Origin: a virus
Taxonomy: Duplodnaviria; Heunggongvirae; Uroviricota; Caudoviricetes
Strand: one strand, 5' to 3'
DNA: 64,000 nucleotides
Virus record (IMG/VR): IMGVR_UViG_3300009856_000010
Coordinates: 1-64,000 of that record
Both the position numbers and the translations under genes were made by a program. Positions 12,163 through 63,286 of the stretch are shown one piece after another. Each line of letters opens with the position of its first letter. Position 1 is the first letter of the stretch. The notes under the pieces were generated by a model. That model was not told the origin of the DNA. It worked only from the letters and a program-made list of their open reading frames with translations, and ran no database searches.

Positions 12163-12280
12163 AAAAAATGGCACGGTGAGGTACAAGAAAACCTCACGGT
12201 GCGGTTTTAAAATCTCGCACCGAGAGGAATCGAAGTTTCGCACTGTGCCATTTTTCGATACCGCACCGTGCCGTTTTTTA
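12163..12280. repeat. nested-palindrome intergenic element, copy 1 (5 CACGGTGCG/CGCACCGTG units; outer arms AAAAAATGGCACGGTG...CACCGTGCCGTTTTTT)
   Basis: Read directly; related copies at 24645-24786, 38495-38607 and 62664-62781. Confidence 0.6.
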
Positions 12281-12404
12281 AGACTTCTGTAGGGAAATCC
12301 CTATTTCTTTGCTTTACGCAAACATTTAATCATGTATTCTTTGCGTAAAGCAAAGTTTTATATATCTTTGTAATGTAAAGCAAGGGGCTTTACTAACAAT
12401 TGAA

Positions 12405-12752
12405 ATGATGGAACAATTAATCGACAGAGTTTGGGATTACTCACTAAACAACCCGGACGGTTTCACTCTCAACATTGAGACCATGAAACCCATTAAGTAC
12501 GGAATCTCGGTAGCGTATCTGGAAACGCAAAACAGTTTCGGAAAAGAGAGTTTAAACGGAGTTATTAACCACGCTTTAAAAAATGGAAAATCGGTCGGCG
12601 GCTGGCTCGATACGGAAACCAACCGATACTATTTCGATAGCGTAAAAATCTTCAAAAACTGGCAGGTAAGTGAAGCGATTGAATTTGCAAAGCAGAACGA
12701 ACAGCTTGCGGTTTTTGATTTAACGAACTTAAAAGAGATTAGAATAAAGTAA
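12405..12752 (+). CDS. hypothetical protein (115 aa), moron island
   Basis: Plus-strand ORF in an AT-rich island antisense to the structural gene string. Confidence 0.3.
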   Translation: MMEQLIDRVWDYSLNNPDGFTLNIETMKPIKYGISVAYLETQNSFGKESLNGVINHALKNGKSVGGWLDTETNRYYFDSVKIFKNWQVSEAIEFAKQNEQLAVFDLTNLKEIRIK

Positions 12753-12813
12753 GGGGCTTGCCCCTTGCTTTTGTTTCATCAAGAATAATATTAACCATTA
12801 AAATAAAAAAAGA

Positions 12814-13041
12814 ATGTTTGAAACCAAAGCGAATACAATAACCCGATGGGGTCTCACAATCAGAGGTTCTGATGTGTATTTCCCGACTAAGGAAATGGCA
12901 ATAAAAATCGGTAAGATGACACTAAAGATGAACCCAGAGACAAAGATGTTTGAGGAGTATCGACTTTGGGATAGAACTTTCCGAAAGCCCAAATTGATAG
13001 ACGAACAGAGATTTGATAGGACTATATTAATAACAACATAA
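12814..13041 (+). CDS. hypothetical small protein (75 aa)
   Basis: ORF in the AT-rich island. Confidence 0.2.
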   Translation: MFETKANTITRWGLTIRGSDVYFPTKEMAIKIGKMTLKMNPETKMFEEYRLWDRTFRKPKLIDEQRFDRTILITT

Positions 13042-13274
13042 TGAATAAATTATGGAAAAGAAAAAACTTCAAATTGACGTATTGAGACAAGTACCCGATA
13101 CAGAATTAATGGAATGGAATGCAATGTATGGATGGACAATCACATTTATAAATTCTTCACCCATAAACATACTTATGAGGAACTTATTAAAGAAGGATTC
13201 TTTGTGCGCGACGGGAAAGAAGAAGATAGTGCAGGAGTAATAAATACAACCCCTACTTTTATAGAGAAATAATT

Positions 13275-13685
13275 ATGAAAACAAACAGCATAACCGCCTA
13301 CAACCGTATGGGCATCCACATGGAAGTGTTGGAGAATGATACGGTAAAAGTTACCCAAAACCGACTGATAAACGGATATATCCTAAATCAGAAGCAGCTT
13401 ATTGAACGTGGAAAAGAAATCTTTCCGGATAAGAAAATCATTCCGGTAGTGTTCTCCATAAACGTTCACGAAATAGATATTGCGTGGATTGAGGGCAAAA
13501 TGGAAGAGTTTGGAATAAAACGGAAAGACCTGATAAAACAATTAGCTTTTGATGAATCATCATTAAGCTTAATGCTTTCCGGAAAAAGAGAATTATCAAA
13601 GCCTGTACGGGCTACTTTTTTCTATTATTTCCTTACGTATGAGTTGAATAGGGATTTAAGGGAGGAGTTGAATAATGCCGAGTAG
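13275..13685 (+). CDS. protein with C-terminal XRE-like helix-turn-helix (136 aa)
   Basis: C-terminal segment RKDLIKQLAFDESSLSLMLSGKRELSKP resembles an XRE HTH; the stop codon lies inside the terminator hairpin. Confidence 0.35.
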   Translation: MKTNSITAYNRMGIHMEVLENDTVKVTQNRLINGYILNQKQLIERGKEIFPDKKIIPVVFSINVHEIDIAWIEGKMEEFGIKRKDLIKQLAFDESSLSLMLSGKRELSKPVRATFFYYFLTYELNRDLREELNNAE

Positions 13686-13700
13686 AATATACTCGGCATT
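13664..13700. terminator. bidirectional terminator hairpin (11-bp perfect stem AATGCCGAGTA / TACTCGGCATT) between convergent genes
   Basis: Perfect inverted repeat 13664-13674 / 13680-13690 followed by ATTTTGTATTT. Confidence 0.5.
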
Positions 13701-13715
13701 ATTTTGTATTTCTAT

Positions 13716-14723
13716 TTAATCTTTCCAAACATCAAAATGCCTCCAGTTCCCATCTTCTGGAAAACCCATGTCTTTGATCATTACTAATTTTCCTGCATTC
13801 TGAATTAAATCTATCAATGCGGATTTAAAATTACTATCTGGGCTAATGATCTTTAAAATATATTGGATGCAACAAAGAAAAGCAAATAGCTTATTATTTC
13901 TTGTTGATTCAATGATGTCTCGGCTTAGAAATGAGTAATTAGTATTATAAGGAAGGGTTATGTTAATAATGAATCGTTTGTTCCATATACGACTATGATG
14001 CGCACAGCAATTTCTAAGAGTGGAAATCCCATGAAGCCAATTAGCAAAAACCTTCCAATTGGTTAATCCAAATTCATAGGCTAACTCTTTCTTGTTATCA
14101 TCGTTTATTAGAAGTTCATACAATCGACTAAGTGTACCTAAAGTTATAGTTTCCAATGTCATCCAGGCAGGAGGCATTTCAGGACTTGAATATCTGTTAT
14201 AATAATGTTTTATAAAATCCTCATTACTGCGACCAACTTCTTTCTCAATATCATCAGCCAATATATTGAAATGGAAAACTTCTTCTTTTTCATAACCGGT
14301 TGTTCCATCTTCCTTTTTAACTTCATTAGTCACAAAATAAGATTTATCCAAAAATAAGGATTCATCCTCAAACCAATGACTGTCATTCGTCTTATCGCAA
14401 TATATTTGAGTCATTTTAGCACGAACAGCTACTTCTATTTTTTCTATTGCATTAAAAATCAACGAACGTAACCGTCTGTCAAAGCAATATAAATCAATTA
14501 TATCACAGAAATGAATGTCTTTTCTAAAAAAACGGTGATCAGCATCCTCGTTTTCATTATCCTGAAAAGGGAAAGTATATGCTCTTAACCGGTAATAACT
14601 TATATTTGAAAGGTATGATTTAGCCAGTTCTTCATCATCAACAATAAGTCCTCTCGACTTCAATTTTTCAAGTTGTTGTTCAATAGATATTGGCGTTTTC
14701 CGGTATGGTATTTTTTCTTCCAT
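13716..14723 (-). CDS. Abi_2 family (AbiD/AbiF-like) abortive-infection protein (335 aa)
   Basis: Motifs YYRLRAYTFPF and LRNCCAHHSRIWN match the conserved Abi_2 signature (R..AHH.R.WN). Confidence 0.55.
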   Translation of the reverse strand: MEEKIPYRKTPISIEQQLEKLKSRGLIVDDEELAKSYLSNISYYRLRAYTFPFQDNENEDADHRFFRKDIHFCDIIDLYCFDRRLRSLIFNAIEKIEVAVRAKMTQIYCDKTNDSHWFEDESLFLDKSYFVTNEVKKEDGTTGYEKEEVFHFNILADDIEKEVGRSNEDFIKHYYNRYSSPEMPPAWMTLETITLGTLSRLYELLINDDNKKELAYEFGLTNWKVFANWLHGISTLRNCCAHHSRIWNKRFIINITLPYNTNYSFLSRDIIESTRNNKLFAFLCCIQYILKIISPDSNFKSALIDLIQNAGKLVMIKDMGFPEDGNWRHFDVWKD

Positions 14724-14853: not shown

Positions 14854-16848
14854 TTATCCCCTTCTTGGTAAACACATCCCCTCCATACTATGCTGAAAAT
14901 ACTTCACGCCAACAAATAGACTATCAAAAGCATCGCTCCCGTCAGTACGGTACTGCAACAAATTTTGTTCAGTTTCGCCTAACTTTTCACCTGCCTTATT
15001 CTTTTTGAAACCGCCATAACCATTTAGTACTTCGGCATTTTCCATCGCCACAATCAACGATTCGTTATTGTCTACATTGATCCGAATAGCGGGATAAGAG
15101 ATGCCTGCCAATGATTCGTTTATATCTTTGAATTTCAATGCATGTTCCATCGGGCGACCCATGTCTATGGCGTTCACCTCCCAACCCGCACGTGATAGTT
15201 CTTCGATAACCACATCCTTAAAGTCTTGCTGTCCCTCGATGGCATATCCGCGAAACTTAGCTGTACTATCATAATAGTAGTTTACTTGTCGGCACGTTTG
15301 AAGGTGAGGGGCGTAATACTTTGTCCAGTCTTTCATCAATTCACGCAACTTTCGCTCGTTCTTTACATACATGGAACTAAGTACCATCAACGCATCGCCG
15401 TGTGCCTCCGGGCAATGTTGCACCTGCCCCGTTATAACCCAGCTAATGTTCGCCCCATAATCCAGTGCAATGTGTAGAGGAAGATTACGTTCCACATCTC
15501 CGTCTAAAGTGCAGTTCTCTTTCATGTTCTGCAATTCAACGAAGTTGGGCGTAACGTAATCGGTGTCTATTTTCCTTCCACCAACGATGGTACTTGCCGT
15601 TTTCTTAACCATACTATTCTCAATAGCCTGGCAAGAACTTGGTACATAACCATGTTCATTTACAACATCCAGCATGGCATAAAAACCGTCACCCGATTTT
15701 TTCATCTTCTGGTTAAGTATGGAAACCGCGAATAGGAGCGGTGGAAGCGCGCGTTTCATGTCTGCAATATAAGATTCTCCGAGTAAATCAATGTTATCAA
15801 GACTCGATGCTTTATAAAAGGCAAACGTATTGCATTGCATCTTCTTAATGTGCTTTCTAACCTTGTCAGACTTTTGTAGCATTTGCAACTCTGCATATTC
15901 CTCTCTGGTAATGAGGTATTCGTAGTTGAAAAGCAATTCGGCATCTTGAGAAGAAATGACATTGTAGTTTACCAACATATCAATGTTTTGCTTGTTAATG
16001 CCCGGTTTTGGCAACATCTTGAAAACACCCTGCCTTACATGGCAAGCATTGGCCACTAATTGTATTTCTTCGCGTTTCTCTTCGGATACGGTTAATACCT
16101 TGTATCCCATTTTCTTGGCTTTGCGAAGCAATTCGTTGAAGAACATAATTCTACCGGCATATTCATCTAATTTCCCTTGCAATTCTTTAGATGTTTTTCC
16201 GGCAAACTCTCCATCTTCAATAACCTTCAGGTTTTGCTCTTCTTCTTTCTCCATCCAATTCTCTTTTTGTGAAATGGCGGCATCACTAACAAAGAGAGTA
16301 CCTTTATAGTAAGGATTTTGGTCGCTAAAACGAGAATCTCCCATCGGATGAATGATGCCCGAAAGCGTTGCCTGCACTTCGGCATCAAACTTGCTTTTCT
16401 TTATGAATCGGGCTTCGTCCAGGATAAAGTAATTTACCGTCATGGAGTTGGCAGAACCACGTACCTCCAAACTGACTAAGTGCCACACAAAGCCATTAAA
16501 GAAGGTAATACAATGGCTCCAATCTTTCGGTTTGATAATAGGGCGGGGAATATTTAGTTTGGTAGGTGGCTGCCCCCACCAGAAATGCTGACCTTCACGC
16601 CAGCCCCAGAAACGTTCAATAGCCGCCAACGTGGCCGGAACGGTACGGGTAAACAACTGTTTCCTACTGTTTCCTGCCCAGATACCTGCACCTTGTGGCA
16701 TGGAAGACGTAACACGTCCGCTTTGTGGACCGATAATACCATCGGTTTTACCGAAACGGCGAGCTGCTATTACCCGAATGTGTTTTGCTCCGGAGTAGTA
16801 AATACGTTGCTGCATCGGGTTCATGTAGACCTCACGACGTTCAGCCAT
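14854..16848 (-). CDS. terL: terminase large subunit (664 aa)
   Basis: P-loop AARRFGKTDG near the N-terminus; Walker-B-like YFILDEARF; size and neighbourhood typical of TerL. Confidence 0.6.
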   Translation of the reverse strand: MAERREVYMNPMQQRIYYSGAKHIRVIAARRFGKTDGIIGPQSGRVTSSMPQGAGIWAGNSRKQLFTRTVPATLAAIERFWGWREGQHFWWGQPPTKLNIPRPIIKPKDWSHCITFFNGFVWHLVSLEVRGSANSMTVNYFILDEARFIKKSKFDAEVQATLSGIIHPMGDSRFSDQNPYYKGTLFVSDAAISQKENWMEKEEEQNLKVIEDGEFAGKTSKELQGKLDEYAGRIMFFNELLRKAKKMGYKVLTVSEEKREEIQLVANACHVRQGVFKMLPKPGINKQNIDMLVNYNVISSQDAELLFNYEYLITREEYAELQMLQKSDKVRKHIKKMQCNTFAFYKASSLDNIDLLGESYIADMKRALPPLLFAVSILNQKMKKSGDGFYAMLDVVNEHGYVPSSCQAIENSMVKKTASTIVGGRKIDTDYVTPNFVELQNMKENCTLDGDVERNLPLHIALDYGANISWVITGQVQHCPEAHGDALMVLSSMYVKNERKLRELMKDWTKYYAPHLQTCRQVNYYYDSTAKFRGYAIEGQQDFKDVVIEELSRAGWEVNAIDMGRPMEHALKFKDINESLAGISYPAIRINVDNNESLIVAMENAEVLNGYGGFKKNKAGEKLGETEQNLLQYRTDGSDAFDSLFVGVKYFQHSMEGMCLPRRG

Positions 16849-23848: not shown

Positions 23849-24541
23849 TTAACCGTGCTCGATAAACTCACTATCTGCATAAGACAGCTTTTTCCGCTTG
23901 CGATAGTAATTTCGTTTCAACGCCATTCGTTCTTTATCGTCGGATGAATTCCGAATATCATATCTCGTCATGAATCGATCTATAGTTTCTAATACGGGTC
24001 GGTCTATTCCGTTTTCGACACACCACTCATAGTCTTTTTTTATATAGGTAAAGAAAGCACTCCAAAACTCGTCGGACATCATATCGTATAATATCTTAGC
24101 GCCGCCTTCCATGAGCTGCCATTGACCGTTCGTTTTGCACATGCGGTTATTAACATAAACTTCGGGTGGCATCTGAATGCAAATATACTCACCATGCTCT
24201 TCGCCATTGACCGGAGAGACGCCAGCCAATTTGAAAATTTCAGCATCGTTCAAAATCTCACCTGTCGCTTTTGGTCCGGTAAATATCTGTTTTCTTCTCC
24301 CGTCTAAAGTGGTATATATGGTACTCCCGCGAAGCATTCGTCTCCATTGTCTTTCGCAAAAGCATCCAAATGGTACAATAAATTCGGTGGTGTTGCTTTT
24401 AAGCATGTGAGACAGAAATTTCCAGATAGGGGATAGTTTGTCGAATTTCATCATTCCCCCTAAAGGTATAGGGTTATTAGAGTCTCTGTTTCGAAAATAA
24501 GCTGCCACATAATGGGGTACACGCAGGTAAAAGTTAGCCAT
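23849..24541 (-). CDS. hypothetical protein (230 aa)
   Basis: ORF following repeat-element copy 2. Confidence 0.3.
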   Translation of the reverse strand: MANFYLRVPHYVAAYFRNRDSNNPIPLGGMMKFDKLSPIWKFLSHMLKSNTTEFIVPFGCFCERQWRRMLRGSTIYTTLDGRRKQIFTGPKATGEILNDAEIFKLAGVSPVNGEEHGEYICIQMPPEVYVNNRMCKTNGQWQLMEGGAKILYDMMSDEFWSAFFTYIKKDYEWCVENGIDRPVLETIDRFMTRYDIRNSSDDKERMALKRNYYRKRKKLSYADSEFIEHG

Positions 24542-24644
24542 ACTAAAGTTTAAATATGATTACAAAATAGTGACAAGTAGAGTAGTGGGGTAGGGGAGTA
24601 TGACGTGTTATTGCAAAGGTAGTGTTTTCTCTTTAAAAAACCGC

Positions 24645-24786
24645 ACCGTGAGGTATGAAAAAACGGCACGGTGCGGTTTGCGAAACTGCCACGGTGAGAT
24701 AAAATGAACTGCCACGGTGCGGTTTTTTAATGTCGCACCGTGAGAGATTTTGATACCGCACCGTGCCAGTTTTTTAGCGGTTTCAG
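24645..24786. repeat. nested-palindrome intergenic element, copy 2 (6 units)
   Basis: Read directly; begins AAAAAACCGCACCGTGAGG and ends GATACCGCACCGTGCCAGTTTTTT. Confidence 0.6.
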
Positions 24787-25464
24787 TCACTTTAAAAGGC
24801 GTTTTAGATTATCTTTCTGTCTTACGTTCGTAAATGCAGACAATTCTTTAATCAACTCAAGAATCTTCTCCTTCGGTGGTTCGGGTAGGTGGTGATTACC
24901 GCTATCAGCTCCGATGTTTACCACAACAGGACTACACTTTTTTATTAATTCGACCATTTCGGGGATATCAAAATCCAGAATTGGTTCTATGGTTACGTAT
25001 GCAGGGTAGTGCCCACCTATATAAACCATTGCGTCCGCTCTTTCTTGTGTTGTGGGCGCATTGCCCATACAGGGATACCAACGATTTGTTTCAATGGTGG
25101 TACATATTACAGACTTCCAAAATACAGGATGGGATATGAAGTCAAGTATTCTCGCAGGATTTTTGGATTGGAACAGGTAGTGATTATCTAACTTGTTACA
25201 ATGATCAAGCGTTTTGAGGATCCATTCTTTGGGATGGGCATCGGCAAATAGATCGTTACTGCTACCTACAAATATAGAGTTATCGCTTCCTAAATCGGTT
25301 TTGAATTCCCGTTCGTCCAGTCGCGCCGGGTTGAGTTTGCCCCAGCGCTTCATATAACAGTAACCGCAATCGTGCGGACAGGCACCTTTTACGGTATTCC
25401 ATGTATGGGTTACGAAGTCATACATGTTTCCTTTTGATGGATTCAGGCTCATGGTTCTACCCAC
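24787..25464 (-). CDS. radical-SAM-like protein (CxxxCxxC: GACPHDCGYCYM), 225 aa
   Basis: Cys triad spacing typical of the radical SAM 4Fe-4S cluster near the N-terminus. Confidence 0.35.
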   Translation of the reverse strand: MGRTMSLNPSKGNMYDFVTHTWNTVKGACPHDCGYCYMKRWGKLNPARLDEREFKTDLGSDNSIFVGSSNDLFADAHPKEWILKTLDHCNKLDNHYLFQSKNPARILDFISHPVFWKSVICTTIETNRWYPCMGNAPTTQERADAMVYIGGHYPAYVTIEPILDFDIPEMVELIKKCSPVVVNIGADSGNHHLPEPPKEKILELIKELSAFTNVRQKDNLKRLLK

Positions 25465-32111: not shown

Positions 32112-32597
32112 CTACAATTTTTTGATTGTTCCTTGCTTCAATGCCGAGATGAAATTTGTTAATGACATTTTTCCACTTTTAGTTGGTTTCAGCATCATTC
32201 CGAAGCGTTCAATTTCTTCTTTTATATATTGCTTCTGCGCATCAGACGCAGCATAACAAACATATCCCTGTTCTGTATTTATCTTTGTAATTTTTGCCGA
32301 TATTTCTTTTCGGGATCCATACCAAAGCATTCCAACATATACATTCTTCTCATAGAAATCTTTTGCCTCTAAATACTCTTTGTTTCGCTCTTCCTCATAT
32401 TCCTTTTTCTTTTGTTCTCTTTTTTCTCCTTCGTAAAGTGTATACATTGGAATTGTAGCAAGAAGTTGCAACGCACCTAAGTTATTTCCACCAACAGGAA
32501 AAGGATATGTCCAACCGTTGAACGTAAGAGGGAAAGGTGGTTGCCCACCTTTCTTTGAGGTTTCAAATTCGTGTATTTTGTAGACTTCCATTGTCAA
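32112..32597 (-). CDS. hypothetical protein (161 aa)
   Basis: ORF. Confidence 0.3.
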   Translation of the reverse strand: MTMEVYKIHEFETSKKGGQPPFPLTFNGWTYPFPVGGNNLGALQLLATIPMYTLYEGEKREQKKKEYEEERNKEYLEAKDFYEKNVYVGMLWYGSRKEISAKITKINTEQGYVCYAASDAQKQYIKEEIERFGMMLKPTKSGKMSLTNFISALKQGTIKKL

Positions 32598-32617
32598 AGG
32601 AATAAAGGGTTAAAGAA

Positions 32618-32721
32618 CTATAGAAAAGCGCAAATAGGACGAACCTGGCTGTAGTTGCTCTTATAGTTGCTGCTCGTATCACCATCGTACCAATTGAGCA
32701 ACCAAGAGGACGACGCTGATT
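32618..32721 (-). repeat. DGR variable repeat VR1
   Basis: Aligned to TR 34630-34733; 7/7 substitutions in the core fall at TR adenines (coding strand). Confidence 0.75.
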
Positions 32722-33394
32722 GTTCCGTAGAAGTTTCGTGCCAGCCATAGAACAGCGGGTCACCCCCGCAAATAGTGAGGGCTGCATCTATCATATTCTT
32801 ATGCTTTTGAAGGAATATCTTTTCGCCCAAAGCAGAAAGGTACCATGTACCTGCCGGTATATTTCCACAAGAATACTCATCGCAATACTTAGCGGCCGGG
32901 CTTCCTGCTGCAACCAACTGGGCAGTATTGGCCTTACCGTTCCAATCCTCTTTTGCCTGGTCGAAATCTTCGTACTGATTGGATGTTGCTATTTCCCGTG
33001 ACGGTAAGTATTGAAGTTCTTCAGGAGAAGATTTCAAAGCAATTCCATACTTTCTATCGCCTTCTACCACAGCAATACATACGGGCGTTTGGTCTTGATA
33101 GTTTAACCATTCTCCCGGACGAATGCAGTTGTTCTCCATGGTCAGGATATAAACACCGTCGGCGCAACCGGCAGGGAAAGTAGAGGGAATAAACGCTTTT
33201 AAATCAGATTCGCATACCCAACCTATATCTTTAGGTTCAAGGCATATATAATAAAGTCCTTCCATTTCATAAGAATCACCTTCTTGTTCGGCAGGCTTAA
33301 ATGCTTTTTTTATCTCTACTACTCTTCCAATCAACTCCCTGTTAGGATGATCTGCGATAATAGCCTTATCGCCTGCTTTAAATTTCAATTCCAT
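32618..33394 (-). CDS. DGR target protein 1 (258 aa), DUF1566/C-type-lectin-like variable C-terminus
   Basis: C-terminus ...SASSSWLLNWYDGDTSSNYKSNYSQVRPICAFL aligns to the TR-encoded peptide; WYLSALGE motif is typical of DUF1566. Confidence 0.7.
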   Translation of the reverse strand: MELKFKAGDKAIIADHPNRELIGRVVEIKKAFKPAEQEGDSYEMEGLYYICLEPKDIGWVCESDLKAFIPSTFPAGCADGVYILTMENNCIRPGEWLNYQDQTPVCIAVVEGDRKYGIALKSSPEELQYLPSREIATSNQYEDFDQAKEDWNGKANTAQLVAAGSPAAKYCDEYSCGNIPAGTWYLSALGEKIFLQKHKNMIDAALTICGGDPLFYGWHETSTEQSASSSWLLNWYDGDTSSNYKSNYSQVRPICAFL

Positions 33395-34863
33395 ACATTT
33401 ATTCCTTTTAAAAGTTTCTTTTTCAATATTCTGTTTTTCTTATACTTATTCTTTACGCTGATTTTCTCGAAATGTCCACTGATGTAACACACCTTCCACC
33501 AGAGCGGAGAAATGCGGCGGGCGGCCTTGCGACGGATGCCATACGTAGAAAAGTGCGACATCATCCCGAAATATGAATTCATGCAAGAGGCAAAGTATTC
33601 GGCCTGCTCGTACACATATCCTTTGTCTGCGGCAGCCAACTGGTTTAGTTCGTCAATGCGGGCATAGAAACTGTTGCGACTGCGGTTGGCCACATACGTT
33701 CTGCCGGGCTTTACCACAGCGCCGATATATTTTACACCCTTTGATACGTGTTGAAGATAAATTTTGTCCGGGTGCAATGTCAATCCCAATGTGTGCAGAT
33801 AGTTGCGAATATCTGCAACGGCCTGTTTCAAGGCTTCGCGGTTGGTACTGATGATATAGAAATCATCTACATATCGACCGTAGAACGTGAAACGGTATTT
33901 CATCAGATGATCGAACGCATTGAGGAAGAAATTGGCACTCACCTGCGAAGTCAGGTTCCCGATTGGAATGCCGTGTCCTGCCGGAGAAGTGAACAGGCTT
34001 TTCCCTACCGGGAGCTCGGCCCATGCATCGGGGTGCGACTTACGGATACAATTCCGTTCGGGTTCGTTTAGAATGGTTTCCCGCATCAGGTAGATAAGGG
34101 TGTCTCTATCCGCGCCCGTATATCGCTCGGTGATAAACGAAGCGAGCATATCGCACAACTGACTGCGGGGGATACTCATAAAGAAACTGCGGATGTCGAG
34201 TTTCAAGGCCCAGCAATCTTTTGTATAATTGGCGGAGCATTGGCGGATATGATCTTCCAACGTCCGGATACCGAAATGTGTACCCTTACCTTTGCGACAG
34301 TTGCTTGTTTCGTCAATAAACAGTTCTTCGAGCAACGGGTTGATGCGGTTGATAAGCAGATGATGTATAATGCGGTCTCGGAACGATGCAGCGAATATTT
34401 CGCGCTTCACCGGTCGGGTGATAATAAACGTAATGCTGCGCTGCGGGTGGTAGGTACGGTTGTTTATTTCCTCACACAGTTCCACGCAGTTGGCTTCGTA
34501 GTTTACCTCGAACGCCATAGCACTGACTGTGTTACGTTTATTCTTCCGGCAATCCAGATACGCCGCAATCACATCTTCCAACCGAATGGGAGAAGCAAAC
34601 AGATAATCAGGACACGTTTCTACGGTTTCCTGTAGTGAAGCGCAAATAGGACGAACCTGGTTGTTGTTGTTCTTATTGTTGTTGTTCGTATCACCATCGT
34701 TCCAATTGAGCAACCAAGAGGACGACGCTGATTCTGTTGCCGATTTCTTAGTCTTAACTCCCCCATCGCAGGAAGTAGGCAACCCTTTTCTATCAGAAAA
34801 CAGGCTCTCTTCACAACCCCGTGAGGTTATGAACGCTGGCTCTTTAGTGTTGAATTTTTCCAT
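33385..34863 (-). CDS. DGR reverse transcriptase (ORF as drawn 492 aa; true start uncertain, RT domain begins after the TR)
   Basis: Motifs PIGNLTSQ (DGR-specific) and FYGRYVDDFYII (YxDD). The ORF reads in-frame through the TR (encoding ...WLLNWNDGDTNNNNKNNNNQVRPICASL) with no ATG between the TR and the RT domain. Confidence 0.75.
   Translation of the reverse strand: MEKFNTKEPAFITSRGCEESLFSDRKGLPTSCDGGVKTKKSATESASSSWLLNWNDGDTNNNNKNNNNQVRPICASLQETVETCPDYLFASPIRLEDVIAAYLDCRKNKRNTVSAMAFEVNYEANCVELCEEINNRTYHPQRSITFIITRPVKREIFAASFRDRIIHHLLINRINPLLEELFIDETSNCRKGKGTHFGIRTLEDHIRQCSANYTKDCWALKLDIRSFFMSIPRSQLCDMLASFITERYTGADRDTLIYLMRETILNEPERNCIRKSHPDAWAELPVGKSLFTSPAGHGIPIGNLTSQVSANFFLNAFDHLMKYRFTFYGRYVDDFYIISTNREALKQAVADIRNYLHTLGLTLHPDKIYLQHVSKGVKYIGAVVKPGRTYVANRSRNSFYARIDELNQLAAADKGYVYEQAEYFASCMNSYFGMMSHFSTYGIRRKAARRISPLWWKVCYISGHFEKISVKNKYKKNRILKKKLLKGINVWN
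34630..34733 (-). repeat. DGR template repeat (TR), adenine-rich AAC-codon tract
   Basis: Plus strand reads CTGGTTGTTGTTGTTCTTATTGTTGTTGTTCG, i.e. an (AAC)n Asn-codon tract on the coding strand; invariant in itself, variable in VR1 and VR2. Confidence 0.75.
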
Positions 34864-35183
34864 CCTGATATCTGTTTGCCTATTTTAGTTGTCAGCTCGG
34901 CCAATTCGGCAGCCTGACTGATTGTTATAATTTTCTTGTCCGTACACAGCCGGATAAGTGTTTTCAGTAACTCAAACTTTACCTGAAACCCTTCGAGGTA
35001 CATTGCTCTATTTGCCACATAAGTGTTAGCCAGATGAATGTATTCGAATAAATCCAGCGATACGGTTTCTATCTTCTGCCCGAAAGTATGTTTACGCGAA
35101 CGTGGGAACTGCATGGTGAGGTCTGTTATCAGACTCACCAATCTGTATGTTTCGCGATATACAGGCAGTTCCGACGTTGACAT
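34827..35183 (-). CDS. avd: accessory variability determinant Avd (118 aa)
   Basis: Four-helix-bundle family pattern LPVYRETYRL...FPRSRKHTFGQKIETVSLDLFEYIHLAN; located between target and TR as in canonical DGRs. Confidence 0.65.
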   Translation of the reverse strand: MSTSELPVYRETYRLVSLITDLTMQFPRSRKHTFGQKIETVSLDLFEYIHLANTYVANRAMYLEGFQVKFELLKTLIRLCTDKKIITISQAAELAELTTKIGKQISGWKNSTLKSQRS

Positions 35184-35213
35184 GGTTGGGTGAAGAATTA
35201 AAGCGTTAAAGGA

Positions 35214-35316
35214 TTATAGAAAAGCGCAAATAGGACGAACCTGGAAGTAGTAGAACTCATTGGTGCAGAACGTATCACCATCGTAACAACTGAGCAACCA
35301 AGAGGACGACGCTGAG
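35214..35316 (-). repeat. DGR variable repeat VR2
   Basis: Aligned to the TR; 14/15 substitutions fall at TR adenines. Confidence 0.75.
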
Positions 35317-36149
35317 TATTCCGTAGAAGACCAGATACCTCGCCAGTCCAGTGGCTTCCCTCCGCAAATGGTAAGGGATGCATCTATCATGTCCTTGTGC
35401 TTTTGCATGAATACGAGTTCGCCAAGGGATGGCAGGTACCAGTGCATACATGGCATACCCGGAGTGCTATATTTAGCACAGAACTGTGCTGCGGGAGATT
35501 TGTCTTCTAACAGATATTTGAAATGAGTAATGCCCGCAAAATCTATCTTAGCTTCAAATTGACTGGAAAATGCTTTGCTTAACACTTTGTTGGTATTATC
35601 ACTAAATTTCATAGATTCTTCGGAACCGGTCAGGGCAATAATTCGTTTCGTGTCGCCTTCGATGACGGCGATACCGACAGGTGTTAGTTTCTTATGACTG
35701 AACCATGCATCGGGGCGTATACATCTTTTGTTGGATGTTAGGATGTAAACCCCGTCGGGGGCTTCTTTATAATGAAAATTGGATTTTAGTTCGTCCAAAC
35801 TCTTGTTTATGTCTTTGAAAATTCCGGAGTAAAACAATCCAGACCATAATGAGTCTAAATCATCCGTTCCAACTATCTCAAGCGAATACTTTGGTTTCGA
35901 CAAATCAAATGAAATTTGAAAACCTTCTTTATTCCGTTCTGGAGTAATAATATACCCTTTCTCTTCAAGTAGCTGTCGCACAGAAGGTGCGAGTGTATCT
36001 ACATGAAAATATTCATGGTCTTCTTTTATAGCATCTGCTACGAACGTTGGAAGTTCTTTTAATAGATGTTCGCTTCGGTTGTTGAGAAGCATATTATAAG
36101 CTTCTCTTGCTGTAATTAGTTTCATGTTTAATCTTATTTTATAATTCAT
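35214..36149 (-). CDS. DGR target protein 2 (311 aa), DUF1566/C-type-lectin-like
   Basis: C-terminus ...SASSSWLLSCYDGDTFCTNEFYYFQVRPICAFL; HWYLPSLGELVFM motif; paralogous to target 1 over the C-terminal ~150 aa. Confidence 0.7.
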   Translation of the reverse strand: MNYKIRLNMKLITAREAYNMLLNNRSEHLLKELPTFVADAIKEDHEYFHVDTLAPSVRQLLEEKGYIITPERNKEGFQISFDLSKPKYSLEIVGTDDLDSLWSGLFYSGIFKDINKSLDELKSNFHYKEAPDGVYILTSNKRCIRPDAWFSHKKLTPVGIAVIEGDTKRIIALTGSEESMKFSDNTNKVLSKAFSSQFEAKIDFAGITHFKYLLEDKSPAAQFCAKYSTPGMPCMHWYLPSLGELVFMQKHKDMIDASLTICGGKPLDWRGIWSSTEYSASSSWLLSCYDGDTFCTNEFYYFQVRPICAFL

Positions 36150-38329: not shown

Positions 38330-38440
38330 TTACATCAAAAAAACATATTATGTATCTTTCTACACGCATAATATCTATTCCGCATACAAAAATACCACTA
38401 AAACATCCATTAAATGATATATTATATATGCTAAAAAACA
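38330..38440. promoter_or_regulatory. AT-rich intergenic region with iterated AAAAACATATTATG motifs
   Basis: Three near-copies read directly (aaaaacatattatgtatc, aaaaacatattatgccg, aaaaacattatttaac) plus an inverted cataatat. Confidence 0.3.
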
Positions 38441-38494
38441 TATTATGCCGTTTTAAAAACATTATTTAACTTTATAAATACAGATTATGTATGA

Positions 38495-38607
38495 AACCTC
38501 ACGGTGCGACACCAAAAAATGGCACGGTGCGAGACTTTCATCCCTCACCGTGCCGTTTCCTTTTATCTCACGGTGCGGTTTTTCGATACCGCACCGTGCC
38601 ATTTTTC
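38495..38607. repeat. nested-palindrome intergenic element, copy 3 (5 units)
   Basis: Read directly; ends GATACCGCACCGTGCCATTTTTC. Confidence 0.6.
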
Positions 38608-38615
38608 AGAAGTAG

Positions 38616-39074
38616 TTAGCCGAGCTCGCCACCACCCCCTCCGTTGCCGCCGCCGGAGTCGTTGCCATTGTCCTCTCCCCCGCTTCCTGTCCGGGTGAAC
38701 TCATTGTCGGTATAGATACCGATGTTGGCCACCATTTCGCGTAGCGCCTTGTTGGGCAGAAAGGTAATCTTTACCTTTTTGATACCCGCTTCGTCCGGAT
38801 TGTCGGAACTTTGGCTGCGCACTGCCGGCAGGAAAGTGCCGAACCCGTCCAGGCGAACACCATGCCCCTCGTTCAGGTACACACTCATGGCATCGACCAA
38901 CTGTGAGATGACGCTGCGGATCTGCGCTTTGTTGGTACCACTGTGCAAATGAATCTGATTGACCAGCCCCTCCGGATCCACCACCTTGCCACGATTGGCC
39001 GTGGCCACATACTTTACACGCTTATCGTCGGTAAAGTTCAACACCATTTTCTTAATCTCTACTCCAAGTGCCAT
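38616..39074 (-). CDS. HU-family DNA-binding protein with Gly-rich C-terminal tail (152 aa)
   Basis: VRLDGFGTF motif of the HU/IHF arm region. Confidence 0.5.
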   Translation of the reverse strand: MALGVEIKKMVLNFTDDKRVKYVATANRGKVVDPEGLVNQIHLHSGTNKAQIRSVISQLVDAMSVYLNEGHGVRLDGFGTFLPAVRSQSSDNPDEAGIKKVKITFLPNKALREMVANIGIYTDNEFTRTGSGGEDNGNDSGGGNGGGGGELG

Positions 39075-62322: not shown

Positions 62323-62665
62323 GATTATGAGCAATGAACGTTACCTCAGATTCAAAATCACCGGTATTCATTATCTTGAAGATGAAAAAACAAAGGAATT
62401 GGTAGAAACCTTAAAACCTGGTGATAAGCTAACCCTCGAACGAGATTCAGATAACTTTTACGATGAGTGGGCCATGGAAGTTTATTCGGATTATACCCTA
62501 ATAGGATATGTTGAATCCGGACAATCAAAAAATGAGAAACTATGTAAATTGAAACGCAAAGGAGCAATATATAGATGCCAAGTAGACGCTGTTATATTAA
62601 ATGAAGCAAAAACACCTATAGTTTATGCCAAAGCATTCTATTTGGCTGAAGATGAAATAGACTAA
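62306..62665 (+). CDS. stand-alone HIRAN-like domain protein (119 aa)
   Basis: Pattern GDKLTLERDSDNFYDEWAMEVY...IGYVESGQS resembles the HIRAN consensus (L.L.RE..N.YD.NAI.V....G..IGYV). Confidence 0.35.
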   Translation: MSIKGEIMSNERYLRFKITGIHYLEDEKTKELVETLKPGDKLTLERDSDNFYDEWAMEVYSDYTLIGYVESGQSKNEKLCKLKRKGAIYRCQVDAVILNEAKTPIVYAKAFYLAEDEID

Positions 62666-62781
62666 AAAAACGGCACGGTGCGGTATCAAAAACTCGCACT
62701 GTGCCGTTTCCTTTTACCGCACCGTGAGGTTTTGGCGAATGGCACCGTGCCGTTTTTTCATACCTCACGGTGCGGTTTTTC
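62664..62781. repeat. nested-palindrome intergenic element, copy 4, between convergent genes
   Basis: Read directly; AAAAAAACGGCACGGTGCGG ... CCTCACGGTGCGGTTTTTC. Confidence 0.6.
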
Positions 62782-63286
62782 ATGTGGTCGTTTGATGGTT
62801 ATCAGCATCTACTCCAAAAGCATTGATTATCATCACGTTTGCCTGGTAGGTATATTCATTCATAAAATATCTCACCATGCGCCGACGTAAGTGGCGGAAC
62901 TCACTGGATATAGCCGGGCGGTGTGTTTTCCCTGCTTTAGGGTTCCAGTTGGTGGTATATCTGCTTTTAAAAGTAGCCGGACTGCTACGAGTCACATCGG
63001 ATGCGGAACGCCCCGCCCCTACTCCAAGGTCTACAAAATTCAGGTAATAGTTGTAGAAAAAATCAATCCGGGCATTGTCTATCATAGCATCTTTCACCTG
63101 AAAATAGAAAGAGTCCATAGCAGCCCCAGTACTTTTCCATGAACCAGGCTTTGCTCTCAGGTTTTTTTGAGCATAACCCGGATAAACTTCATAAGGGAAT
63201 ATACCTTGTACTTTGAAGTTTCGGTATAGGTTCTCAAGGGTGTCGAGAGCCATGAGTTCGAGTTTACGGTCTATTGATATTGCCAT
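62780..63286 (-). CDS. hypothetical protein (168 aa)
   Basis: ORF. Confidence 0.3.
   Translation of the reverse strand: MAISIDRKLELMALDTLENLYRNFKVQGIFPYEVYPGYAQKNLRAKPGSWKSTGAAMDSFYFQVKDAMIDNARIDFFYNYYLNFVDLGVGAGRSASDVTRSSPATFKSRYTTNWNPKAGKTHRPAISSEFRHLRRRMVRYFMNEYTYQANVMIINAFGVDADNHQTTT

What the first reader, a model, noticed from the sequence alone, without database searches (positions are those of the whole stretch)
12163..12280. Four copies of a ~115-bp nested-palindrome element built from CACGGTGCG/CGCACCGTG units
Copies at 12163-12280, 24645-24786, 38495-38607 and 62664-62781 each contain 5-6 alternating-orientation ~12-bp units. Their outer arms are mutual reverse complements (AAAAAATGGCACGGTG ... 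CACCGTGCCATTTTTT), forming nested hairpins with T-runs in both orientations. All four sit at intergenic module boundaries: terL/moron versus the portal block, the early genes versus the head block, after the HU gene, and between convergent genes at 62.7 kb. They look like a family of bidirectional intrinsic terminators or a protein-binding site reused as module punctuation. They spawn artefactual ORFs with the shared peptide PHR(E/A)V..YLTV(P/R)FF.
Basis: seen in the sequence. Interest (0 to 1): 0.6.

Follow-up and report, generated by a model that had tools for sequence, protein, structure and literature searches.

The report
Phased hairpin-repeat terminator arrays in phage
Four intergenic spots in this uncultured Bacteroidales phage each carry 5-6 copies of a 23-base "half-terminator" unit built on the same seven bases, which most likely stop transcription in both directions at gene-block borders; this is a tidy variant of a known kind of signal, and its rigid spacing is still unexplained.

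Summary
The four sites are arrays of 5, 6, 5 and 5 units. Every unit carries the heptamer CAC[G/C]GTG, and units lie exactly 23 bp apart in mixed orientation. The heptamer occurs outside the arrays only at chance level.

Canonical unit: AAAA-YSK-CACGGTG-CGR. Read on the other strand, this is a stem arm followed by a T-tract.

Each array folds into very stable hairpins on both strands, and these are followed by U-runs. Arrays B, C and D begin within about 0-11 nt of stop codons, and D fills a convergent gene gap.

Related uncultured phages carry the same kind of array at syntenic junctions, with the same 23-bp register and compensatory flank changes. More distant relatives have ordinary single hairpin terminators at two of these junctions.

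Best reading (about 0.6): compound bidirectional intrinsic terminators or insulators, a lineage-specific repeat family. The small ORFs over them are artefacts, because a 23-nt period cannot hold a reading frame.

A plain terminator model does not explain two things. The heptamer is nearly invariant (42 of 46 units), and there are no indels in 37 inter-unit intervals. These leave room for a sequence-specific protein or for unit-wise turnover. There is no Rfam hit and no RAYT gene, and I found no prior description. Interest is moderate.

The parts
12163..12280 (.). Array A: 5 units with cores at 12172, 12195, 12218 (CACCGAG), 12241 (CACTGTG) and 12264; orientation ++---. It lies between the start of the 105-aa gene (12071, - strand) and the 115-aa moron gene (12405, + strand).
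   Evidence: RNA fold -54.5 (+) and -51.6 (-) kcal/mol, z -6.8 and -5.8. An orthologous 5-unit array sits at L127:13195. In L128 the array lies directly between the terL stop and the 105-aa gene.
24635..24779 (.). Array B: 6 units with cores at 24644 to 24759, all exact; orientation -+++--. It starts about 11 nt after the stop codon (24787-24789) of the 225-aa DUF5131/radical-SAM gene on the - strand. It lies upstream of the 230-aa gene that opens the block running to terL.
   Evidence: Fold -72.4 and -67.3 kcal/mol, z -9.7 and -9.5. The ortholog in rel1 (L127:2101) has 5 units, and the window copy has one extra unit, seen as a 24-nt gap.
24614..24621 (-). TACCTTTG, a match to the Bacteroidetes -7 promoter box TAnnTTTG. 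It lies 22 nt downstream of the last unit of array B on the - strand.
   Evidence: Read. The consensus is from my own knowledge of Bacteroides promoters. The same box (TATCTTTG) lies 21 nt after the orthologous array in rel1. Promoter function is inferred, not tested.
38494..38606 (.). Array C: 5 units with cores at 38500 to 38592, all exact; orientation ++-+-. It ends 9 nt from the stop codon (38616-38618) of the HU-HIG DNA-binding protein gene on the - strand.
   Evidence: Fold -48.9 and -56.5 kcal/mol, z -7.0 and -6.5.
62664..62781 (.). Array D: 5 units with cores at 62674, 62697 (CACTGTG), 62720, 62743 and 62766; orientation +---+. It exactly fills the gap between the stop of the HIRAN-domain gene (62663-62665, + strand) and the stop of the 168-aa gene (62780-62782, - strand).
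   Evidence: Fold -67.8 and -62.4 kcal/mol, z -9.4 and -8.4, with two hairpins per strand and the distal one followed by a U-run. The ortholog in rel1 (L148:5817) is about 93% identical between unalignable flanks.

Best explanation
Each site is a compound, bidirectional, Rho-independent terminator or insulator assembled from a repeated 23-bp 'half-terminator' unit.

The unit. It consists of an A-tract, a 13-nt GC-rich arm (YSK-CACGGTG-CGR) and a short linker. On the complementary strand the same unit reads as arm plus T-tract.

How it would work. The heptamer is palindromic except for its central base, so any two arms in an array can pair. The 3-nt flanks and the linkers extend particular pairings into stems of 12-21 bp. 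Transcripts entering from either side therefore meet one to four strong hairpins, each followed by a U-run. The stems are far longer than in ordinary terminators. This would make termination robust next to a terminating ribosome and possibly resistant to antitermination, and it could also give a stable 3' end to the upstream mRNA.

Where the arrays sit. They lie at borders between transcription blocks, often where blocks of opposite orientation or cargo genes meet. They evolve by substitution with compensation in the flanks and by gain or loss of whole units.

Shown: the repeat anatomy, the folding potential, the positions, and conservation and turnover among related phages. Inferred: actual termination, and the reason for the multi-hairpin design.
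For: Anatomy.
- 46 units in 9 arrays from 4 phages give the logo aAAAA-Y-S-K-CACGGTG-C-G-R. In the 37 units used for the logo, A fills positions -6 to -4 in 30-35 units.
- Every array has hairpin-plus-T-run sites, 1-4 per strand, with dG -11 to -38 kcal/mol. The single exception is one strand of one array.

Folding.
- Whole-array folds are -49 to -72 kcal/mol, with z -5.8 to -9.7 on both strands.
- With the heptamers held fixed, shuffling only the flanks and linkers still loses 9-33 kcal/mol (z -2.4 to -8.7). Stem extension is therefore built in.

Position.
- B and C start 9-11 nt after stop codons.
- D fills a 114-nt convergent gap.
- In L128 the array follows terL by about 50 nt.
- In L148 it follows a stop codon by 10 nt, and in L149 it sits between convergent genes.

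Ordinary terminators at the same junctions.
- The HIRAN convergent junction of L149 carries one 17-bp hairpin flanked by A and T runs.
- The terL junction of L142 carries a simple bidirectional hairpin.

Evolution in the window-versus-rel1 orthologs.
- Alignments are gap-free inside the arrays. Substitutions are 3% in the heptamer, 21% in the flanks and 32% in the linkers.
- Flank changes are compensatory in array A: TGG/CCA becomes CGG/CCG, and CCT/AGG becomes (A)GG/CC(G).
- Three mismatches are G.U wobbles on one strand.
- One whole-unit indel occurs at B.

Literature. Typical terminator stems are 7-9 bp, and a 15-bp stem confers resistance to processive antitermination in pLS20 (PMC10325885). 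Terminators placed a few bp after a gene are inhibited (abstract of PMC4824070, seen).
Against: - There are no transcript 3'-end data.
- Array A, and its ortholog in rel1, lies between divergently oriented genes, so it ends no adjacent gene there. This is explained historically by cargo inserted between terL and the array, but the array is retained all the same.
- The pairing topology is not conserved between orthologous arrays.
- A pure RNA-hairpin constraint does not predict an invariant heptamer (42 of 46 exact), because stems could covary.
- It also does not predict zero indels in 37 loops and linkers.
- Neither strand is consistently the more stable relative to gene direction.
- Most other gene-block ends in the window use plain hairpins or none, so the elaborate form is not required for termination.
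Confidence: 0.6

Rival explanations
1. Arrays of operator or roadblock sites. A sequence-specific DNA-binding protein, from the phage or the host and probably a dimer reading the near-palindromic CAC-N-GTG, binds cooperatively to sites 23 bp apart. It would act as a transcription roadblock or insulator, a silencing site or a nucleoid-organising site. On this view the hairpin potential is secondary.
For: - The heptamer is invariant while flanks and linkers diverge (3% against 21% and 32%).
- The exact 23-bp register holds in 37 of 37 intervals across four phages, irrespective of unit orientation.
- Array D is an island of about 93% identity between unalignable flanks.
- A centre-to-centre spacing of 23-24 bp is that of cooperatively bound lambda operators, and about 22 bp is typical of plasmid iterons (my own knowledge).
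- The phage encodes candidate binders: a 209-aa Cro/CI-type HTH_26 protein, a 203-aa GerE/LuxR-type HTH protein, an HU-HIG protein next to array C, and DUF4248.
- Bacteroidaceae MAGs carry an unrelated-looking palindromic element with the same heptamer at the same 23-bp spacing.
Against: - The unit is polar beyond the heptamer: an A-tract on one side only, and flanks that are never the self-complementary CCG...CGG.
- The non-core sequence is arranged to extend the stems, and flank changes are compensatory. Neither is needed for duplex binding.
- T-runs follow the 3' arms exactly as in terminators.
- No repressor, integrase, Rep or Par gene is adjacent to any array.
- The match to the MAG elements may come from ascertainment, because the scan pattern demanded this heptamer and this spacing.
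Confidence: 0.2
2. A REP/BIME- or MITE-like selfish palindromic repeat that has spread within this phage lineage. Any terminator, mRNA-stabilising or RNase III-processing effect would be a by-product. Its main evolutionary effect would be to supply short homologies for module exchange, as with the PeSL cassettes of T4-type phages.
For: - Near-identical terminal units occur at all four sites (TTTTYGATACCGCACCGTGCC).
- Clusters have mixed orientation and fixed linkers, as in BIMEs (PMC3333891).
- Whole units are gained or lost.
- The arrays adjoin cargo hot spots: Abi_2, HTH, methylase and umuDC-like genes differ between relatives at these junctions.
- The gene next to B is the most diverged in the block, at 53% against 72-93%.
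- The family is restricted to a narrow clade.
Against: - No Y1/RAYT transposase, or any other transposase, is detected by Pfam among about 68 window proteins.
- There are no solo units and no target-site duplications.
- The arrays are orthologous and syntenic between phages with 70-93% protein identity, so they are old and vertically inherited rather than recently transposed.
- None occurs inside genes.
- No recombination breakpoint could be mapped exactly to an array.
Confidence: 0.12
3. The repeats encode small proteins sharing the PHREV..YLTVPFF peptide.
For: ORFs of 42-64 codons span the arrays on both strands and share peptide motifs.
Against: - The repeat period of 23 nt is not a multiple of three, so successive units are read in different frames.
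- The ORFs lie on either strand.
- Conservation between orthologs tracks the heptamer and the stem flanks, not codon positions.
- The shared peptides are simply translations of the shared DNA unit.
Confidence: 0.01

Closest known systems
Bidirectional Rho-independent (intrinsic) terminators, including long-stem antitermination-resistant ones such as pLS20 TerR (PMC10325885)
   Same: A GC-rich stem flanked by an upstream A-tract and a downstream T-tract, so that it works on both strands. Placed after stop codons and between convergent genes. Stems are much longer than the usual 7-9 bp.
   Different: Here 4-6 arms are chained at an exact 23-bp period and give several alternative or nested hairpins. 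All arms share one invariant heptamer, and the same element recurs at several sites and in related phages. Ordinary terminators are unique sequences.
REP/BIME elements of enterobacteria and pseudomonads (PMC3333891)
   Same: Short, imperfectly palindromic, intergenic repeats clustered in both orientations with defined linkers. They often lie at 3' ends of genes and are known to affect termination and mRNA stability.
   Different: No RAYT (TnpA_REP) gene. The host is a phage genome with only about 4 clusters. The unit is a 13-nt arm rather than a 35-40-nt self-folding REP. The period is a strict 23 bp, and there is no sequence similarity.
PeSL promoter-terminator cassettes of T4-type phages (PMC2839356, PMC4122927)
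   Same: A conserved intergenic stem-loop motif repeated through a phage genome at the borders of plastic or cargo regions. It is proposed to punctuate transcription and to mediate modular exchange.
   Different: A PeSL is a single stem-loop fused to an early promoter. Here there are multi-unit phased arrays, and a promoter-like box follows only some of them. Recombination at the arrays is not demonstrated.
Stoperators of cluster A mycobacteriophages (PMC9283540, PMC6550527)
   Same: One short conserved sequence occurs at many intergenic sites across a phage genome and stops transcription there.
   Different: Stoperators are single asymmetric 13-bp sites oriented with transcription and bound by the immunity repressor. 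They are not hairpin arrays with U-tracts. No cognate repressor is identified here, and orientation is mixed.
Uptake sequences (DUS/USS) of Neisseria and Haemophilus, which occur as inverted pairs in terminators (my own knowledge)
   Same: A sequence-specific motif kept invariant for a reason other than pairing, yet deployed as inverted repeats that double as terminator stems.
   Different: There is no evidence here for any DNA-uptake or other recognition system. Those are chromosomal elements rather than phage elements, and they have no fixed period.

Membership tests
Intrinsic (Rho-independent) terminator | Stable GC-rich RNA hairpin immediately followed by a U-rich tract | tested here: met
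   There are 1-4 hairpin-plus-T-run sites per strand in 17 of 18 array strands, with dG -11 to -38 kcal/mol. Whole arrays have z -5.8 to -9.7.
Intrinsic (Rho-independent) terminator | Located at the 3' end of a transcription unit | tested here: inconclusive
   Met for B, C, D (both strands), L128, L148 and L149, which lie 0-50 nt after stop codons. Not met for A and its rel1 ortholog, which lie between divergent genes.
Intrinsic (Rho-independent) terminator | Transcripts actually end there | not testable with these tools
   No RNA data are available for this uncultured phage.
REP/BIME | Associated RAYT/TnpA_REP (Y1 HUH transposase) in the genome | tested here: not met
   A Pfam scan of about 68 window proteins found no Y1_Tnp or other transposase. 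About 19 kb of the 83-kb source contig lies outside the window and was not seen.
REP/BIME | Each repeat is itself an imperfect palindrome of about 35-40 nt with a conserved 5' tetranucleotide, clustered in alternating orientation | tested here: not met
   The units are 13-nt arms that do not self-fold beyond CAC/GTG. Their flanks are never self-complementary, and orientation is mixed rather than alternating.
PeSL cassette | Stem-loop fused to a conserved promoter | tested here: inconclusive
   A TAnnTTTG box lies 21-22 nt after array B and after its ortholog. At A and C the nearest such boxes are about 55-110 nt away, and D has none.
PeSL cassette | Copies coincide with indel or replacement breakpoints between close relatives | tested here: inconclusive
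   Cargo differs next to A in all relatives, and the flanks of D are unalignable. No breakpoint was mapped inside an array. Only one close relative is available, as fragments.
Stoperator / operator array | Cognate sequence-specific DNA-binding protein | not testable with these tools
   Candidate HTH and HU proteins exist, but binding cannot be assessed.
Stoperator / operator array | Site orientation correlates with the direction of transcription | tested here: not met
   Both orientations occur within every array.
Iterons / ParR-type centromere | Phased short repeats adjacent to the rep or par gene they serve, usually next to an AT-rich unwinding region | tested here: not met
   The phasing is met (23 bp). 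No Rep or Par gene adjoins any array, there are four or more dispersed copies, and the arrays sit tightly after stop codons.
CRISPR array | Repeats of 23-50 bp separated by unique spacers of similar length | tested here: not met
   The whole period is 23 bp. The 'spacers' are 10-nt A/T-rich linkers, and orientation is mixed.
Any Rfam family | Covariance-model match at the gathering threshold | tested here: not met
   No hits in the 64-kb window.

The most novel reading that the evidence does not exclude
The invariant heptamer CAC[G/C]GTG, held at a rigid 23-bp register, is read by a sequence-specific protein of the phage or of its Bacteroidales host. The arrays would then be protein-dependent insulators, roadblocks or genome-organising sites, or processing sites, rather than simple intrinsic terminators. 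The palindromic chromosomal elements of Bacteroidaceae MAGs, which carry the same heptamer at the same spacing, would be the host's own sites for that factor. That would define a previously unrecognised Bacteroidales DNA or RNA recognition system that phages plug into.
Probability: 0.15. Interest if true: 0.7.

Novelty: new variant of a known kind. Interest (0 to 1): 0.4.

Why it matters
If these are what they appear to be, they offer three practical things:
- compact, very strong, orientation-independent terminators or insulators for Bacteroides genetics;
- a sequence-level marker of transcription-unit borders in a widespread but uncultured phage group of about 83-110 kb, for which almost no gene has an annotation;
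- a simple search signature for the clade.

The part that does not fit is the frozen heptamer and the indel-free 23-bp register. It can be tested cheaply by mutating the heptamer with compensation and by shifting the spacing. The outcome would either reveal a new sequence-specific factor or show how multi-partner pairing and unit-wise turnover can freeze a repeat.

Tried and rejected
Searches that found nothing or nothing related.
- Rfam at gathering threshold over the whole window: no hit. tRNA/tmRNA: none.
- GenBank phages. Megablast of 15 kb gave nothing, and blastn of array D gave nothing. tblastn of the 664-aa protein gave only about 28%-identical annotated large terminases.
- IMG/VR. The three-heptamer pattern found only GC-rich tandem repeats. 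The terminal-unit pattern found nothing, and a search for terL relatives found nothing.
- JGI metagenome contigs. A specific three-unit pattern found nothing. A mixed-orientation pattern gave 12 hits, none of this family.
- GTDB genomes. More than 120 hits, mostly plain 23-bp tandem repeats in GC-rich genomes. None belongs to the phage family.
- Literature search by sequence words returned only primers and unrelated text. A search for REP-like elements in Bacteroides found nothing relevant.

Hypotheses rejected.
- Coding small ORFs: the period is not a multiple of 3.
- CRISPR: the period is too short.
- Replication-origin iterons or centromeres: no rep or par neighbour, and GC skew shows no switch at the arrays.
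- RAYT-driven REPs: no transposase found.
- An RNA with one conserved fold, such as a riboswitch or sRNA: the topology differs between orthologs.

Leads that did not hold up.
- I first thought rel1's B-site array was inverted relative to the window. Unit-by-unit alignment shows the same orientation, with one extra unit in the window.
- I looked for variant arrays with other cores in array-less relatives. L142 has three GAGGTCGTGAC-type units, but at 25 and 22 bp spacing and without U-tracts. The L145 and L128 candidates are not periodic.
- The resemblance of CACAGTG plus 23 to V(D)J recombination signals was noted and dismissed as coincidence.

Full report
**1. The observation**

All four copies are present at the stated coordinates. 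The heptamer CACGGTG/CACCGTG occurs 23 times in the window, against 4.25 +/- 2.0 in dinucleotide-preserving shuffles; no shuffle reaches 23. Eighteen occurrences lie in the four clusters, and the five solo copies equal the chance level. The 9-mer CGCACCGTG with up to 1 mismatch gives 24 hits against 6.7 expected, 21 of them in the clusters.

Heptamers start at:
- 12172 + 23i (5 units);
- 24644 + 23i (6 units);
- 38500 + 23i (5 units);
- 62674 + 23i (5 units).

Three of the 21 cores carry a single substitution. Orientation, taken from the central G or C, is mixed rather than alternating: A ++---, B -+++--, C ++-+-, D +---+.

**2. The unit**

I put 37 units from three phages into one orientation. 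The consensus is aAAAA-Y-S-K-CACGGTG-C-G-R, followed by a weakly T-rich linker. A occupies positions -6 to -4 in 30-35 of the 37 units. The left and right 3-nt flanks are never complementary to each other.

The unit is therefore polar. On one strand it reads as an A-tract plus a 13-nt arm. On the other strand it reads as an arm plus a T-tract. I call it a half-terminator.

The heptamer is palindromic except for its centre. Arms of either orientation can therefore pair, with a central mismatch when they share orientation, and the flanks decide which arms pair best.

**3. Folding**

Each window array folds at -49 to -72 kcal/mol on both strands, with z -5.8 to -9.7 against shuffles.

I then kept the heptamers fixed and shuffled only the flanks and linkers. 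This still costs 9-33 kcal/mol (z -2.4 to -8.7; at most 3 of 200 shuffles are as stable, over 18 array strands). The non-core sequence is therefore arranged to extend the stems.

A scan for a closed hairpin ending at a T-run finds 1-4 such sites per strand in 17 of 18 array strands. Stems are typically 12-14 bp, and up to 21 bp, with loops of 8-12 nt. Typical terminator stems are 7-9 bp (PMC10325885).

**4. Gene context**

The window belongs to an uncultured tailed phage. Its source contig is 83,155 bp. Genes identified include:
- a distant large terminase, 14854-16848;
- a 2056-aa tape measure protein;
- a DNA polymerase III beta clamp, several DNA methyltransferases and a diversity-generating retroelement.

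The arrays sit as follows:
- Array B starts about 11 nt after the stop codon of a DUF5131/radical-SAM gene.
- Array C ends 9 nt from the stop codon of an HU-HIG gene.
- Array D exactly fills the 114 nt between two convergent stop codons.
- Array A lies between the start of a 105-aa gene on the - strand and a 115-aa gene on the + strand.

No transposase, integrase, Rep or Par gene was detected by Pfam among about 68 window proteins.

**5. Relatives**

Nothing similar is present in GenBank phages, IMG/VR or JGI metagenome contigs. Protein searches led to related contigs in Logan and ENA assemblies.

rel1 (SRR33527599) shows 70-93% protein identity and is fully syntenic. It has 5-unit arrays at the sites syntenic to A, B and D.

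rel2 (SRR31508470; terL 71% identical) has a 6-unit array directly between the terL stop and the 105-aa gene, with no cargo genes there. The A array was therefore probably once the terminator after terL. In the window phage and in rel1, cargo genes were later inserted between terL and the array; in the window these include an Abi_2 gene.

rel3 (ERR13998689; tape measure 48% identical) has a 4-unit array between convergent genes next to umuDC-like cargo.

In all, there are 9 arrays, 46 units (42 with an exact heptamer) and 37 intervals. Every interval is exactly 23 bp.

Four further relatives, with terL 67-71% identical, have no array within 10 kb either side of terL. Two of the corresponding junctions carry ordinary terminators instead:
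- a simple A-tract/stem/T-tract hairpin after terL in L142;
- a single 17-bp bidirectional hairpin at the HIRAN convergent junction of L149.

This replacement at the same positions is the best indirect evidence that the arrays do a terminator's job.

**6. Evolution of the arrays**

Orthologous arrays of the window and rel1 align without gaps. Substitutions are 3 of 105 in heptamers, 19 of 90 in 3-nt flanks and 56 of 174 in linkers.

Several flank changes are compensatory. In array A, TGG...CCA becomes CGG...CCG, and CCT...AGG becomes (A)GG...CC(G). Three imperfect pairs are G.U on one strand.

The pairing topology is not conserved. In window B the pairs are u0-u3, u1-u2 and u4-u5. In its ortholog they are u0-u4 and u1-u3, with a self-palindromic middle unit. 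What is preserved is strong hairpins with U-runs, not one particular fold.

The window's B array has exactly one more unit than the rel1 copy, seen as a 24-nt gap. Array D is about 93% identical between flanks that cannot be aligned. At A the whole intergenic region is 89% identical, and the interior of the array is its most variable part.

**7. Interpretation**

The best-supported reading (about 0.6) is a compound bidirectional intrinsic terminator or insulator built from phased half-terminator units, and a lineage-specific repeat family.

Two points from the literature suggest why a chain of long hairpins could be useful:
- Terminators placed a few bp after a gene are inhibited (abstract of PMC4824070, seen). 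B, C and D begin within about 0-11 nt of stop codons.
- An unusually long stem (15 bp) confers resistance to processive antitermination in pLS20 (PMC10325885).

Both links are inference.

A terminator model leaves two things unexplained. The heptamer is invariant although the stems could covary, and there are no indels in the loops and linkers. Three explanations remain possible:
- Multi-partner pairing freezes a near-palindromic core.
- Turnover by whole units, for which there is one observed case, regenerates the register.
- A protein reads the heptamer on DNA or RNA. This is the rival explanation, at about 0.2.

The polar A-tract, the stem-extending flanks and the U-runs argue that a protein is not the whole story.

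A REP/BIME- or PeSL-like selfish or recombinogenic repeat (about 0.12) is not excluded as an evolutionary description. It lacks a transposase, solo copies and mapped breakpoints.

Coding of the overlying ORFs is excluded in practice, because 23 is not a multiple of 3 and conservation follows the heptamer.

**8. A lead not followed to the end**

The GTDB scan returned mostly irrelevant tandem repeats. It also returned at least 10 copies, in Bacteroidaceae MAGs (RGIG5573 from sheep colon, and MAG29), of an intergenic perfect palindrome of about 76 bp. This palindrome contains four CACCGTG/CACGGTG heptamers at the same 23-bp spacing, with AT-rich linkers and flanks different from the phage units. 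Several copies lie between convergent genes.

Other Bacteroidales MAGs (Tannerella, Prevotellaceae) have tandem 23-bp palindromic units around the same heptamer.

My pattern required exactly this heptamer and this spacing, so the coincidence may come from ascertainment. The likely hosts of this phage group are Bacteroidales (terL homologues occur in Bacteroidaceae and Prevotella records). The match therefore keeps open the idea of a shared recognition factor.

**9. Verdict**

The feature is real, statistically unambiguous and conserved in a narrow phage clade. Its anatomy, positions and replacement pattern fit bidirectional terminators.

It is a new variant of a known kind. It resembles REP/BIME, PeSL and long-stem terminators in different respects and is a member of none. 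I found no prior description of it. Interest is moderate, at 0.4.

Noticed in passing
window 32597-36149: A diversity-generating retroelement. It comprises a reverse transcriptase (33385-34863, -), bAvd (34827-35183, -) and a 311-aa target gene (35214-36149, -). Three copies of a 137-nt repeat lie at 32597-32733, 34609-34745 and 35193-35329. These probably represent one template repeat and two variable repeats at the 3' ends of the 258-aa and 311-aa genes.
   Followed up: partly
L014, L027, L042, L073, L083, L093, L095, L106, L110, L123 (e.g. L095:3618-3700): Bacteroidaceae MAGs (RGIG5573, MAG29) carry a dispersed intergenic perfect palindrome of about 76 bp. It has four CACCGTG/CACGGTG heptamers at the same 23-bp spacing as the phage arrays, but different AT-rich linkers. 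Several copies sit between convergent genes. This may be a host-genome analogue or an ascertainment coincidence.
   Followed up: partly
window 12309-12355: An operator-like inverted repeat, TTTGCTTTACGCAAA ... TTTGCGTAAAGCAAA. It lies between array A and the 115-aa cargo gene, overlaps a TATCTTTG promoter-like box, and is conserved in rel1.
   Followed up: no
window 12405-14723 and the terL/105-aa junction of L127, L129, L142, L145: The junction after terL is a cargo hot spot. Different relatives carry an Abi_2 abortive-infection gene, HTH proteins, an N6/N4 methylase, or nothing.
   Followed up: partly
window 38330-38495: An AT-rich stretch next to array C contains three copies of ACATATTATG-like words, upstream of two small - strand ORFs of 54 and 65 aa. 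It may be a promoter or regulatory region.
   Followed up: no
L142:33-92: At the site syntenic to array B, a relative without CACSGTG arrays has three GAGGTCGTGAC-type units (+,-,-), 25 and 22 bp apart, right after a stop codon and without U-tracts. This is a different hairpin-unit cluster at the same junction.
   Followed up: partly
window 23849-24541: The 230-aa gene immediately downstream of array B is far more diverged from rel1 (53% identity) than its neighbours (72-93%). It is either fast-evolving or was exchanged.
   Followed up: no
L036, L052, L084, L118, L010, L070, L120, L050: Termite- and animal-gut Tannerella, Prevotellaceae and Bacteroidales MAGs contain dispersed tandem arrays of 23-bp units. 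Each unit is a palindrome centred on CAC[G/C]GTG, for example ggagtaCACCGTGtactcc. Their nature is unknown.
   Followed up: no
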